A stretch of 64,000 nt of DNA from Oliverunavirus OLIVR1 (IMGVR_UViG_2974724996_000001:1-64000); one strand, 5' to 3'. Positions 1,854-34,263 are shown, counted from the stretch's first letter. Notes: a model not told the origin generated them from the letters alone. Made by a program: numbers and translations.

Positions 1854-1884
1854 TACATCCAGTCGTCCCCGCCTCTGGATGTCT

Positions 1885-1929
1885 GGGGAAGAAGGTTCCT
1901 GCCATTTCCTTCTTCCCCTTTCTTTTTTG
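1885..1929 (+). terminator. rho-independent terminator after HU gene
   Basis: 11-bp stem ggggaagaagg/ccttcttcccc followed by tttctttttt. Confidence 0.75.
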
Positions 1930-2460
1930 AATACCCAGTAGAGCGACCTGCTGGGGGTAGACGATCTTCCTCTCTGCTGCCGTGGGGGAATGATCTCGGC
2001 AGGTGGGTGTCTGTTGGTTGACGCTTGGGTTCATACCCCTTGCTACGTTGGTTCAATTCCAACCCCACCTGTTTATAATTTAATTAGATGAGTAAGGCTC
2101 GTGTGGACAAGCGCGCTTTAACAACGTCCTAACCTTGTTCCCTTATAGGAGCGTGCGTCTTGCAAGCCAGTACGTTATGCGGGGGATAGTAAACCTTACT
2201 CTTCTAATTAAATTGGGTTACCCGAGTAATGACGGGTATACCCCTTGGCCTTGGTTCTGGGCCTTATACTCAACCTCGTTCTCGTAGTCTGACGGTGATC
2301 AGAATACTCCGATCCCCTGCTTAGGACATAATGGCAGGTAACCCTGAACCGGGGTCATTTGTATAGTCCAGTACATTGCTGGAAGGTCAAGGGTGGGTCT
2401 TAGCTGGCCAGCATACATGTTATGAAGTGGCTACCTCGTTCAATTCGAGGCATTTCATGT
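1930..2460 (+). other. ORF-free structured region with tRNA-like hairpins
   Basis: No credible ORF; T-arm-like hairpins ttggg-ttcatac-ccc, gttgg-ttcaatt-ccaac (+ acceptor-like caggtgg/ccacctg), cctcg-ttcaatt-cgagg; long-range inverted repeat aatttaattagatgagtaagg (2073-2095) / ccttactcttctaattaaatt (2194-2216). Confidence 0.35.
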
Positions 2461-2491
2461 GACCTGCCTATTTAATTTCTGGAGAAAGATT

Positions 2492-2737
2492 ATGATAGTA
2501 ATCAGGATTGAGCTTCACTCAGCCGTAACCCAAAAGGTTACAGAGCTAGGGCGTATGCACATAGCAAACGATGGTAGCTCTCTTGATCCTACTATCGGCC
2601 ATTATGATGGTAAGGTTCTTCGTAAGCCTGACTTCGTTCGTGAAACACGAACTGCCCATGTCCACGGACACAAGAGGCAGGCACTTACAATATGGCATCT
2701 CCTAGGTAAGATGCTCAAGGAGATGGGTTATGTTTGA
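2492..2737 (+). CDS. hypothetical protein
   Basis: ORF with RBS ggagaaag upstream of ATG 2492 (track start 2459 has no RBS). Confidence 0.4.
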   Translation: MIVIRIELHSAVTQKVTELGRMHIANDGSSLDPTIGHYDGKVLRKPDFVRETRTAHVHGHKRQALTIWHLLGKMLKEMGYV

Positions 2738-3070: not shown

Positions 3071-3137
3071 ATCGCTGTAGCTCAGCCCGGTAGAGCATGT
3101 GCGCACAAGGTCGCTGGTTCAAATCCAGTCAGTGATG
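3071..3137 (+). tRNA. tRNA-like element, degenerate (no canonical anticodon arm)
   Basis: Acceptor atcgctg/cagtgat (one G-U), perfect D-arm gctc-agcccggta-gagc and T-arm gctgg-ttcaaat-ccagt, but only 15 nt (palindrome tgtgcgcaca) where the 17-nt anticodon arm should be; total 67 nt. Confidence 0.35.
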
Positions 3138-3524: not shown

Positions 3525-3959
3525 TATGGTTGTAAATGAAACCTCCTCATCATGTTCAAAACAAAGCAGTTCGTCCTTCATGGAAACAACTTTTCCGTGA
3601 ACTTAAATGCTCCATCTCTGGACATGTTTTCTATGTGGCATGGGGGAATGGCTACCGTGGTTTACCTCAGTCTCATTGTTTTTGTTGTGGTGTCAAAGGT
3701 CCTTCTGCCATTCCTTCTTGCGAAGAGTGGATAGAACCTATCGGTTGAACCAAAGAAATAAACTACTCCCCGAACGAAGTGAGGGGAAAATTACTTCCAC
3801 TAATATTAATTCGTCCATGAATAATGGATGATAGCCGGGGTAGCCCAAGCACAAGGCAAGAGGTTCTGTGAACAACGGAGATAGTGTGAGTAGGGTGGCT
3901 GATCTTCCTTTCAAGGATGCTCATTCACGAGTCTCACCCCCGGCACCAATTTAATCAAA

Positions 3960-4009
3960 GTGTATCTGATGAGTCCTTATTGGACGAAACGCATTAGGGC
4001 GTCATACAC
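3960..4009 (+). ncRNA. hammerhead ribozyme, type I (stem I open), minimal
   Basis: Stem I gtgtat(3960-3965)/atacac(4004-4009); core CTGATGA 3966-3972; stem II gtcc-ttatt-ggac 3973-3985 (G10.1-C11.1 present); GAAA 3986-3989; stem III cgc-attagg-gcg 3990-4001 closed by A15.1-U16.1; cleavage triplet GUC with C17 at 4003. Confidence 0.7.
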
Positions 4010-4583: not shown

Positions 4584-4662
4584 CCAAGGGTAGTTCAACT
4601 GGTAGAACCCCGGGTAGGTAGCTCCTATCTGGTATATGGAAGTTCAAATCTTCCCCCTTGGG
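4584..4662 (+). tRNA. tRNA-like element, anticodon unassigned
   Basis: Perfect acceptor ccaaggg/cccttgg, D-arm gttc-aactggta-gaac, T-arm ggaag-ttcaaat-cttcc; 29-nt middle lacks a canonical 5-bp/7-nt anticodon arm (best: ggtag-gTAGCtc-ctatc). Confidence 0.4.
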
Positions 4663-34148: not shown

Positions 34149-34162
34149 TCCCCTGTTTCATA

Positions 34163-34263
34163 ATTGAGTGGCAGAGTGGCTTAATGCTGACGCGAAGGAA
34201 GACTGGATGGGTGAGCTACGCCTCTATACTCGCCAGCCGTGGGTTCAAATCCCATCTCAATTT
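34163..34263 (+). other. tRNA-like element (acceptor aattgag/ctcaatt plus T-arm gtggg-ttcaaat-cccat), 101 nt, too long for a canonical tRNA
   Basis: Seen in sequence; the 70-nt region between acceptor and T-arm has no canonical D or anticodon arms. Confidence 0.3.

What the first reader, a model, noticed from the sequence alone, without database searches (positions are those of the whole stretch)
1856..2491. 635-bp ORF-free region downstream of the HU gene, full of tRNA-like hairpins and a long-range 21-bp inverted repeat
There is no plausible ORF. After the HU terminator come two consecutive T-arm-like hairpins, each stem-closed around a ttca[at]ac/ttcaatt loop. Acceptor-like pairing caggtgg/ccacctg follows. 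A third T-arm-like hairpin lies at 2436. A 21/22-nt inverted repeat (2073-2095 versus 2194-2216) encloses about 100 nt. This looks like one or more structured ncRNAs or decayed tRNA genes rather than spacer.
Basis: seen in the sequence. Interest (0 to 1): 0.55.

Follow-up and report, generated by a model that had tools for sequence, protein, structure and literature searches.

The report
Unannotated odd tRNA-like gene plus leader
The gap after the HU gene of Agrobacterium phage OLIVR1 is non-coding: it holds a conserved but malformed methionine-type tRNA-like gene that GenBank annotates as a tiny protein, followed by a fast-evolving patchwork of RNA hairpins upstream of the next gene. This is a useful annotation fix, not a new kind of element.

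Summary
The window is Agrobacterium phage OLIVR1 (N4-like, Schitoviridae).

**Conserved part (1885-2072).** It contains the terminator, two leader hairpins with compensatory changes, and a non-canonical tRNA(CAU)-like element at 2000-2072.
- The element scores 29.4 bits on Rfam tRNA (threshold 29).
- It has a canonical T arm, anticodon loop and acceptor stem, but an aberrant D arm and U·U mismatches in the anticodon stem.
- It has an extra -1:73 pair and no encoded CCA.
- It is 94% identical in the only distant syntenic relative, where the flanking genes are about 71% identical. GenBank's "gp06" ORF over it is spurious.

**Variable part (2073-2491).** It is absent from that relative and partly swapped in a near-identical phage. 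It looks like a modular leader: the long hairpin, probable decayed copies of the tRNA module, and a portable three-hairpin module.

**Most likely mechanism (inferred, not shown).** A tRNA-shaped RNA is cut out of early transcripts by host tRNA-processing enzymes, ahead of a structured gp08 leader that can mask or expose the ribosome-binding site. A real decoding tRNA-Met remains a serious rival.

Novelty and interest are modest.

The parts
1856..1881 (+). Small hairpin just after the HU stop codon (catccag...ctggatg)
   Evidence: Present in the minimum-free-energy fold. Only partly kept in L004.
1885..1928 (+). Intrinsic terminator of the HU gene: 11-bp perfect stem, 12-nt loop, T-run
   Evidence: Inverted repeat I5. 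The stem is 100% identical in L004 and L028 while the loop varies.
1934..1955 (+). Leader hairpin 1
   Evidence: Seen in the folds. By manual reading, an A-T pair becomes T-A in L004 (CCCAG/CTGGG against CCCTG/CAGGG).
1960..1997 (+). Leader hairpin 2 (13 pairs with one bulge), abutting the tRNA-like element
   Evidence: RNAalifold: two pairs are kept through changes on both sides and two through a change on one side, between OLIVR1 and L004.
2000..2072 (+). Non-canonical tRNA(CAU)-like element. The cloverleaf is 2001-2071, with an extra pair 2000:2071 (position -1 with the discriminator, position 73). Anticodon CAT is at 2032-2034 and no CCA is encoded. GenBank annotates the stretch as ORF gp06.
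   Evidence: - Rfam tRNA scores 29.4 bits against a threshold of 29.
- ARAGORN finds it only at a relaxed threshold in OLIVR1, but at default in L004.
- It is 94% identical to L004, where the flanking genes are 70-72% identical.
- The gp06 reading frame hits a stop in L004 (sequence).
2076..2215 (+). Long hairpin: arm A (2077-2097) pairs with arm B (2194-2214) around a 96-nt branched interior
   Evidence: (z = -3.5), but z = -3.7 on the minus strand too. Present in L028 and L044 and absent from L004.
2229..2280 (+). Probable decayed copy of the tRNA module (GGGT--ATACCCCTTG..TTGGTTC)
   Evidence: Local alignment to 2018-2073 scores 32. Only 0.7% of random genomic segments score as high. Suggestive only.
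2275..2397 (+). Portable three-hairpin module ('module X'): hairpin i 2284-2307, hairpin ii 2341-2355 (ACCCUG-AAC-CGGGGU), hairpin iii 2367-2383
   Evidence: It recurs at a different intergenic site in the related phage L044 (1383-1505), with compensatory changes in hairpins ii and iii. L044's own cassette upstream of gp08 keeps GCUUG-AAC-CGAGC. It is single-copy in the window.
2391..2457 (+). Decayed tRNA-like copy: 5' GGTGGGT, then CTAC, then a T arm (2434-2450). It can refold as an acceptor/T-arm minihelix (2423-2457).
   Evidence: Direct repeats D2 and D4 and the collinear repeat D1, all at about 390-nt spacing. The full-length collinear alignment gives p about 0.055. The minihelix appears in the folds.
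2467..2494 (+). gp08 translation start region ('arm C'): GGAG at 2481-2484 and ATG at 2492. It resembles arm A and is complementary to arm B.
   Evidence: Repeats I2 and D1. The B:C duplex is -15.5 kcal/mol, p about 0.001-0.005. The probability that the Shine-Dalgarno is unpaired is 0.66 with arm A present and 0.25-0.29 without it.

Best explanation
The HU-gp08 gap is a non-coding, modular stretch of the rightward early transcription unit of an N4-like phage.

**Conserved core (1885-2072).**
- It consists of the HU terminator, two leader hairpins and a tRNA-shaped RNA with an intact CAU anticodon loop.
- The tRNA-shaped RNA has an aberrant D arm, an extended acceptor helix and no encoded CCA.
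- The most likely reading is that read-through early transcripts are cut at this cloverleaf by the host tRNA-processing enzymes: RNase P at the 5' side and RNase Z or RNase E at the 3' side.
- That cut would release a small, stable tRNA-like RNA and separate the HU message from the gp08 message, acting as tRNA-type punctuation.
- Whether the released RNA is also charged with methionine is open.

**Variable leader (2073-2491).**
- This is the lineage-specific 5' leader of gp08, assembled from local duplications of the tRNA module and from a portable three-hairpin module.
- Its 21-bp A:B hairpin holds arm B away from the gp08 ribosome-binding site. Arm B could otherwise pair with that site.
- In the relative L004, a single long hairpin at the same position buries the site directly.

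**Shown:** the sequence anatomy, the conservation pattern, the compensatory changes, the lack of coding signal, and the alternative pairing energies.

**Inferred:** transcription through the terminator, cleavage by RNase P/Z, and any control of translation.
For: **Identity and coding status.**
- The window is OLIVR1, with all early genes on the + strand.
- There is no coding signal in the gap.
- The gp06 frame is broken in L004.

**The tRNA-like element.**
- The tRNA model matches at 29.4 bits with a canonical T loop, G18-G19, U33-CAU-A37 and a 7-bp acceptor stem.
- It is 94% identical between OLIVR1 and L004, against 71.5% (HU) and 70.2% (gp08) for the flanking genes and 77% for the terminator-to-tRNA stretch.
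- Compensatory changes occur in leader hairpin 2 and at the -1:73 pair.
- The canonical tRNAs of both phages (Asn, Gln/Trp, and the tRNA at 40274) are followed by CCA. The CAU element and the 3071 element are not.

**Precedent in the same lineage.** These phages keep a second tRNA-shaped RNA that cannot decode: no anticodon loop, 52 bits, six compensated pairs across three phages. This shows that non-decoding tRNA mimics are maintained here.

**Other processing-type elements nearby.** Several lie in other early intergenic gaps, including a complete hammerhead core at 3960-4009.

**Leader.**
- L004 has a z = -6.3 hairpin running from the tRNA 3' end to the Shine-Dalgarno.
- In OLIVR1, B:C pairing is significant and removing arm A lowers Shine-Dalgarno accessibility.
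- The G·U wobbles in hairpin ii would be A·C mismatches on the other strand, which points to + sense RNA.

**Published analogue.** Plant mitochondrial t-elements show that tRNA-like structures can define mRNA ends (PMC1920247, found; abstract only).
Against: - There are no transcript data at all.
- A strong, conserved terminator sits only 70 nt upstream, and no promoter was identified for the tRNA-like element.
- Only one informative distant relative exists, so the covariation rests on single events. The -1:73 change alone has roughly a 0.1 chance expectation.
- The near-identity in L028 and L044 reflects a recombination block, not selection.
- The perfectly canonical and invariant anticodon loop is not needed for a mere processing signal. 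It fits a decoding tRNA or an anticodon-binding partner better.
- B:C complementarity follows automatically if arm A is a duplicate of arm C, so it need not be functional.
- Module X has no unusual folding energy (z = -0.2 to -0.8).
Confidence: 0.45

Rival explanations
1. The element at 2000-2072 is a working, decoding tRNA-Met (initiator-derived) that receives CCA from the host enzyme. Its odd D arm and acceptor end may make it insensitive to a host tRNA-cleaving defence. The rest of the gap is simply its 3' flank and the gp08 leader.
For: - The anticodon loop UUCAUAC, the three G-C pairs above it, the T loop and G18-G19 are all canonical and invariant.
- The unusual UUGGG/CCCUU anticodon stem is shared with bona fide phage tRNA-Met genes that carry CCA and a 1:72 mismatch (L037, L041, L043).
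- ARAGORN calls it tRNA-Met in L004 at the default threshold.
- L004 has the expected A73 discriminator.
- From my own recollection, not tested here: a single nucleotide between the acceptor and D stems combined with a lengthened anticodon stem is a known compensated architecture in mitochondrial tRNA-Ser(UCN).
Against: - No CCA is encoded, unlike every canonical tRNA of both phages.
- The D loop has no A14 or A21, and the D stem has only 3 pairs.
- The score sits at the Rfam threshold, and ARAGORN misses it at default in OLIVR1.
- The discriminator differs between the two phages and co-varies with position -1. That suggests selection on a helix rather than on aminoacylation identity.
- The bacterial initiator hallmark, a 1:72 mismatch, is absent.
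Confidence: 0.3
2. The gap is evolutionary debris: a decaying tRNA gene cluster and duplicated spacer with no function beyond the HU terminator and the gp08 ribosome-binding site.
For: - 2073-2491 is absent from L004, and its central 116 nt is swapped in L044.
- Decayed tRNA-like copies are present.
- No Rfam family matches.
- Folding z-scores are weak for 2215-2491 and for module X.
Against: - The cloverleaf is 94% identical where protein-coding flanks are about 71% identical. Under flank-like divergence about 20 differences are expected in 71 nt and 4 are seen.
- Compensatory changes occur in leader hairpin 2 and in hairpins ii and iii of module X.
- Module X is retained at a second locus in another phage.
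Confidence: 0.12
3. The hairpins act at the DNA level. The 5-6-bp stem with a 3-nt loop (2341-2355) would be an N4-type hairpin promoter for the virion RNA polymerase that restarts transcription after the HU terminator. The 21-bp inverted repeat would be a cruciform or a protein-binding site.
For: - N4-like phages use hairpin promoters with short stems and 3-nt loops (PMC4496689, PMC9163698).
- Hairpin ii keeps its loop and closing pairs while its stem co-varies in three copies.
- A G lies 13 nt downstream of the loop centre in two of the three copies, as reported for LUZ7.
- A promoter is needed somewhere after the terminator.
- The inverted repeat is purely Watson-Crick and equally stable on both strands.
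Against: - For rightward transcription the template-strand loop would be GTT, with a central pyrimidine. N4 needs a central purine and a C-GRA-G context.
- The conserved T·G wobble becomes an A·C mismatch on the template strand.
- No further copies occur near other early genes in OLIVR1 or L004.
- No repeated motif was found in the conserved 1929-1999 stretch.
Confidence: 0.08
4. The annotated mini-ORFs gp06 (33 aa) and gp07 (31 aa) encode real small proteins.
For: - They are annotated in GenBank.
- An ORF from the same ATG (2229) stays open for 43 codons (counted from the translation) in L044, despite a different downstream sequence.
Against: - Codon-usage scores are negative.
- gp06 coincides with the cloverleaf and is truncated by a stop in L004.
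- gp07 has no Shine-Dalgarno at a usable distance, and its C-terminal two-thirds is non-homologous between near-identical phages.
- No family matches.
Confidence: 0.05

Closest known systems
Phage-encoded tRNA-Met / initiator-type tRNA(CAU) genes
   Same: - CAU anticodon in a UUCAUAC loop.
- Three G-C pairs closing the anticodon stem.
- The same UUGGG/CCCUU anticodon stem as in IMG/VR phage tRNA-Met genes.
- Canonical T arm and 7-bp acceptor stem.
   Different: - No encoded CCA.
- A1-U72 is paired, with an additional -1:73 pair, instead of the 1:72 mismatch.
- The D stem has 3 pairs, one connector nucleotide and no A14 or A21.
- The score is only at the Rfam threshold.
tRNA-like processing signals inside longer transcripts (plant mitochondrial t-elements, PMC1920247; mascRNA-type tRNA mimics, from my own knowledge)
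   Same: - A tRNA-shaped fold without CCA lies between coding regions of one transcription unit.
- A sibling element in the same phage lacks the anticodon loop altogether.
   Different: - Cleavage has not been shown here.
- This element keeps a perfect anticodon loop, which such signals do not need.
T4 tRNA-cluster-associated stable RNAs (species 1 and 2), from my own knowledge
   Same: Structured non-coding RNA lies next to phage tRNA-type genes and is co-transcribed with them.
   Different: There is no sequence or structural similarity, and the OLIVR1 leader is not conserved even within its genus-level relatives.
Shine-Dalgarno-sequestering leader hairpins and three-segment translational switches
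   Same: - The L004 hairpin buries the gp08 Shine-Dalgarno.
- OLIVR1 has segments A, B and C with alternative A:B and B:C pairing.
   Different: No trigger is known, and the complementarity may be a by-product of duplication.

Membership tests
tRNA (Rfam RF00005) | Covariance-model score at or above the curated gathering score (29 bits) | tested here: inconclusive
   It scores 29.4 bits in the 6-kb and 651-nt searches and 29.8 bits in L004. It is not listed in the whole-window gathering run with default filters.
tRNA (Rfam RF00005) | 7-bp acceptor stem, and a 5-bp T stem with a TTCRANY loop | tested here: met
   AGGTGGG/CCCACCT and GTTGG-TTCAATT-CCAAC.
tRNA (Rfam RF00005) | 7-nt anticodon loop with U33 and a purine at position 37, on a 5-bp stem | tested here: inconclusive
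   The loop UUCAUAC is canonical. The stem has three G-C pairs plus two U·U mismatches, and an extra C-G pair. The same U·U stem occurs in accepted phage tRNA-Met genes.
tRNA (Rfam RF00005) | Canonical D arm (two connector nucleotides 8-9, 3-4-bp stem, A14/A21, G18-G19) | tested here: not met
   There is one connector nucleotide, a 3-bp stem, and the loop UGUUGGUU, which has G18-G19 but no A.
tRNA (Rfam RF00005) | 3' CCA encoded, as in the canonical tRNAs of the same genome | tested here: not met
   The element is followed by TTT (also TTT in L004). The Asn, Gln, Trp and 40274 tRNAs are all followed by CCA.
tRNA (Rfam RF00005) | Aminoacylation and decoding | not testable with these tools
   This needs tRNA-seq or charging assays.
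Bacterial initiator tRNA-fMet | CAU anticodon and three consecutive G-C pairs at the loop end of the anticodon stem | tested here: met
   GGG/CCC flank UUCAUAC. That these features define the family is from my own knowledge.
Bacterial initiator tRNA-fMet | Unpaired 1:72 position | tested here: not met
   A1-U72 is paired, and C-1:G73 (U-1:A73 in L004) extends the helix. The comparator phage genes do show a 1:72 mismatch.
tRNA-like processing element (t-element / mascRNA type) | tRNA-shaped fold lacking full tRNA features, embedded between genes of one transcription unit | tested here: met
   It lies between HU and gp08 on the + strand and has the non-canonical features listed above. A second, anticodon-less mimic is conserved in the same phages.
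tRNA-like processing element (t-element / mascRNA type) | Endonucleolytic cleavage by RNase P and/or RNase Z at its ends | not testable with these tools
   No transcript-end data exist for OLIVR1. The OLIVR1 paper reports none.
N4-type virion-RNA-polymerase hairpin promoter (for 2341-2355) | 5-7-bp stem with a 3-nt loop | tested here: met
   ACCCTG-AAC-CGGGGT.
N4-type virion-RNA-polymerase hairpin promoter (for 2341-2355) | Hairpin formed in the template strand, with a central loop purine and the C-GRA-G context | tested here: not met
   The template-strand loop would be GTT, and the T·G wobble becomes an A·C mismatch (against PMC4496689). Other genera may differ.
Miniature inverted-repeat transposable element (for 2077-2214) | Terminal inverted repeats with a target-site duplication and further copies elsewhere | tested here: not met
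   The inverted repeat is present. There is no flanking duplication (sequence). No other copy exists in the window, in plasmids or in phages.
Any curated Rfam family (for 2073-2491) | Match to a covariance model | tested here: not met
   In 2073-2491 there are only chance-level hits (E of 4.4 or higher). The below-threshold sbrA-like match (30.8 against 45 bits) lies outside, on the HU terminator hairpins at 1853-1924.

The most novel reading that the evidence does not exclude
OLIVR1-like schitoviruses maintain a set of CCA-less tRNA mimics in their early transcripts. One has an intact initiator-type CAU anticodon arm (2000-2072), one has no anticodon loop (3071-3137), and a hammerhead ribozyme lies at 3960-4009. 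Together these would form an RNA-level punctuation system. The CAU mimic could in addition act as a decoy, or as a cleavage-resistant substitute, for a host nuclease that targets initiator tRNA, such as the VapC-type toxins common in Rhizobiales.
Probability: 0.15. Interest if true: 0.65.

Novelty: new member of a known kind. Interest (0 to 1): 0.35.

Why it matters
**Practical.** It corrects the OLIVR1-3 annotation. gp06 is a tRNA-like gene, gp07 is very unlikely to be a gene, and at least three further tRNA-like or ribozyme elements in the early region are unannotated.

**Biological.**
- It shows that an N4-like phage lineage conserves tRNA-shaped RNAs that standard tRNA finders miss.
- One of them keeps a perfect CAU anticodon loop despite a malformed body.
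- If these are processing signals or decoys, they would add an RNA-processing layer to the early transcription programme of schitoviruses. That programme has been studied mainly at the promoter level.
- The near-identical mosaic relatives also show that small non-coding modules are exchanged between early intergenic gaps.

Tried and rejected
- **Known RNA families.** Three Rfam scans of the window (gathering, and E up to 10 on 6 kb and on 651 nt) found nothing in 2073-2491. tmRNA or a permuted tmRNA was considered because the host is an alphaproteobacterium, but ARAGORN found none. There was no group I intron hit.
- **Homologues of 2060-2495.** None in phages or plasmids, and no second copy in the window.
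- **gp08-anchored synteny.** In Rhizobium phages RHph_Y1_11 and TM16, and in three metagenomic contigs, the context is different and no tRNA-like element is present. IMG/VR holds no OLIVR-like phage.
- **The anticodon-arm + T-arm pattern scans** of the viral, metagenome and genome collections. They returned only ordinary phage tRNA-Met genes.
- **A 30-nt match in Pseudomonas N4-like phages.** It lies inside a coding sequence on the other strand, so it is chance.
- **High identity of L028 to OLIVR1 in the gap.** I first read this as selection. The identity profile shows a recombination boundary near 1740, so it carries no weight.
- **Promoters.** No sigma-70-type promoter lies in the gap. The TATAAT at 2074-2079 has no -35 partner and is not conserved. 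No repeated motif occurs in the conserved leader. The N4-type hairpin promoter reading of 2341-2355 is disfavoured.
- **MITE reading of the inverted repeat.** Rejected.
- **A link to the annotated polynucleotide kinase (gp74).** The protein has only 122 aa and no RNA ligase is annotated, so it is not used as evidence.

Full report
**Identity and context.** The window is the left 64 kb of Agrobacterium phage OLIVR1 (MT234338; Schitoviridae, N4-like), and window coordinates equal genome coordinates. The finding covers the gap between the HU-like gene gp05 (1581-1853) and gp08 (2492-2737), both on the + strand in the early region. GenBank places two tiny ORFs in the gap, gp06 (1990-2091, 33 aa) and gp07 (2229-2324, 31 aa). 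The OLIVR1 paper reports four tRNAs and no analysis of this region (PMC10132094).

**Checking the observation.**
- A codon-usage log-likelihood trained on 23 long ORFs of the window is positive for HU, gp08 and gp09 and negative in all six frames across 1860-2490. gp06 and gp07 score negative and match no Pfam or PHROG family.
- The HU terminator is an 11-bp perfect stem followed by a T-run.
- The inverted repeat is 2077-2097 against 2194-2214, 20 of 21 complementary. The longest repeat in dinucleotide shuffles averages 11.7 nt, with a maximum of 17.
- Two perfect 5-bp hairpins with the loop TTCAATT lie at 2047-2063 and 2434-2450, against 0.14 expected.

**The tRNA-like element.**
- The Rfam tRNA model matches 2001-2071 at 29.4 bits, against a gathering score of 29.
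- ARAGORN misses it at default settings. At a relaxed threshold it draws a 73-nt tRNA-Met(CAT) spanning 2000-2072.
- That drawing has an 8-bp acceptor helix, one connector nucleotide and a 3-bp D stem with loop UGUUGGUU. The anticodon stem reads C-G, U·U, U·U, G-C, G-C, G-C, with loop UUCAUAC, variable region CUAC and a perfect T arm.
- It is not followed by CCA. The canonical tRNAs of this phage (Asn, Gln, and the one at 40274) and of its relative (Asn, Trp) all are.
- Phage tRNA-Met genes from IMG/VR carry the same UUGGG/CCCUU anticodon stem, together with a 1:72 mismatch and CCA. The element therefore probably descends from an initiator-type phage tRNA.
- It lacks the bacterial initiator hallmark, because 1:72 is paired.

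**Comparative evidence.** Protein searches with gp08 and HU, followed by contig look-ups, gave three kinds of relative.

1. **L004**, a 75-kb Logan contig. HU is 71.5% and gp08 70.2% identical at the nucleotide level, and synteny is kept. Here the gap is only 324 nt.
   - The terminator stem is identical.
   - Leader hairpin 2 (1960-1997) is kept through two double and two single compensatory changes.
   - The cloverleaf is 94% identical.
   - The pair between position -1 and the discriminator changes from C-G to U-A.
   - The gp06 frame meets a stop.
   - From 2073 onward there is no detectable similarity except the ribosome-binding site.
   - L004 instead has about 100 nt that fold into one long hairpin (z = -6.3). 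Its base pairs the sequence directly after the tRNA with the gp08 Shine-Dalgarno.
2. **L027-L029**, short contigs of an OLIVR1-like phage. They are 80-83% identical in gp04 but 98.5% identical from about 1740 to 2194. This is a recombination block, so it says nothing about selection. It does show that the long hairpin exists in another phage.
3. **L044**, from the same study. It is about 99% identical to OLIVR1 at 1936-2250 and 2367-2500, but 2251-2366 is replaced by an unalignable 110-nt cassette.
   - Part of the OLIVR1 cassette (2276-2306) reappears in L044 about 600 nt downstream of its gp08, between the anticodon-less tRNA mimic and the gp10 homologue.
   - Aligning the two copies defines a module of about 120 nt with three hairpins. 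Hairpins ii and iii are kept by compensatory substitutions.
   - L044's replacement cassette still contains GCUUG-AAC-CGAGC, a third version of hairpin ii with a different stem.
   - The conserved U·G wobble next to the loop would be an A·C mismatch on the other strand, so the hairpin belongs to the + strand, most simply to + sense RNA.
   - The module's overall folding energy is unremarkable (z = -0.2 to -0.8).

**Internal repeats.** Three collinear direct repeats at about 390-nt spacing link 2002-2017, 2047-2063 and 2078-2096 to 2392-2407, 2434-2450 and 2470-2488.
- A full-length alignment of 2000-2100 to 2383-2488 gives p about 0.055.
- 2018-2073 aligns to 2229-2280 with p about 0.007 against random genomic segments.
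- I read these as decayed duplicates of the tRNA module.
- The copy at 2391-2457 can refold into an acceptor/T-arm minihelix.

**The long hairpin and the gp08 start.**
- Arm A (2077-2097) resembles the gp08 translation start region, arm C (2470-2488). Arm B (2194-2214) is complementary to both.
- The A:B duplex is -25.4 kcal/mol. The B:C duplex is -15.5 kcal/mol, better than 99.5-99.9% of controls.
- In partition-function folds the Shine-Dalgarno is unpaired with probability 0.66 when arm A is present and 0.25-0.29 when the RNA starts after arm A.
- Together with the L004 hairpin that buries the Shine-Dalgarno, this suggests that the leader modulates gp08 translation.
- The complementarity would also arise automatically from a duplication.
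- The A:B stem is all Watson-Crick and equally stable on both strands, so a DNA-level role cannot be excluded.

**Mechanism.** My best reading is that the cloverleaf is a tRNA-shaped RNA excised from early transcripts by host tRNA-processing enzymes. It would punctuate the HU and gp08 messages, and a modular structured leader follows it (confidence 0.45).
- Supporting context comes from a second tRNA mimic at 3071-3137. It has no anticodon loop, scores 52 bits, lacks CCA, and is kept by six compensated pairs across OLIVR1, L004 and L044. It cannot decode.
- A complete hammerhead core lies at 3960-4009.
- tRNA-type elements occupy five of the early intergenic gaps.
- Plant mitochondrial t-elements are the closest published analogue (PMC1920247, found; abstract only).
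- The main rival (0.30) is that the element is a working tRNA-Met. The invariant canonical anticodon loop argues for it. The missing CCA, the malformed D arm and the co-varying discriminator argue against it.
- Lesser rivals are neutral debris (0.12), DNA-level hairpin promoters or a cruciform (0.08; the N4 rules in PMC4496689 are not met) and small proteins (0.05).

**Limits.**
- There are no transcript data.
- Only one informative distant relative exists.
- No promoter was found downstream of a strong, conserved terminator.

**Verdict.** This is a real, conserved, unannotated non-canonical tRNA-like gene plus a fast-evolving modular leader. It is a new member of a known kind, of modest interest (0.35). 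It is worth an annotation correction and a simple Northern blot or end-mapping experiment.

Noticed in passing
window 3071-3137: A tRNA-like element lacks an anticodon loop: the anticodon arm is reduced to the 10-nt palindrome TGTGCGCACA. It scores 52 bits on Rfam tRNA, has no CCA, and overlaps the annotated start of gp10. It is conserved in L004 (4255-4321) and L044 (1142-1208) with six compensated base pairs.
   Followed up: partly
window 3960-4009: A complete type I hammerhead ribozyme core (CUGAUGAG...CGAAAC...GUC) lies on the + strand in the gap between gp12 and gp13. It scores 31.4 bits against a gathering score of 34, with E = 7e-5 in a 6-kb search, and is unannotated. None was found in L004.
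   Followed up: no
window 4584-4662: A tRNA carries a 15-nt insertion in the anticodon arm. GenBank calls it tRNA-Thr, while ARAGORN calls it an 81-nt Ala(agc). It is followed by CCT rather than CCA.
   Followed up: no
window 34162-34263: A 102-nt tRNA-model hit (34.5 bits) without CCA is annotated as a 30-aa CDS (gp75). It lies directly after a 122-aa protein annotated '3'-phosphatase 5'-polynucleotide kinase'.
   Followed up: no
window 40274-40347: A tRNA annotated tRNA-Val has the anticodon loop CCCUAAC. ARAGORN reports a 4-nt anticodon (ccta). It could also be read as CUA (amber). CCA is encoded.
   Followed up: no
L004 3397-3491: In the relative, the whole spacer between the tRNA-like element and gp08 is one long hairpin (z = -6.3). 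Its base pairs with the gp08 Shine-Dalgarno.
   Followed up: partly
L044 (SRR23593227) and L027-L029 (SRR2359322x): These are mosaic OLIVR1-like phages in metagenomes. Recombination boundaries lie near OLIVR1 1740 and at 2251 and 2366. L044's spacer after the anticodon-less tRNA mimic is L004-like.
   Followed up: partly
L032 (OLIVR3) 3798-3951: OLIVR3 differs from OLIVR1 by a 77-nt tandem duplication of 3798-3874 in the early region.
   Followed up: no
L030 926-4273 (SRR17543907 contig): An HU homologue lies next to a 965-aa protein with a PF05183 RdRP domain on a 34.8-kb contig.
   Followed up: no
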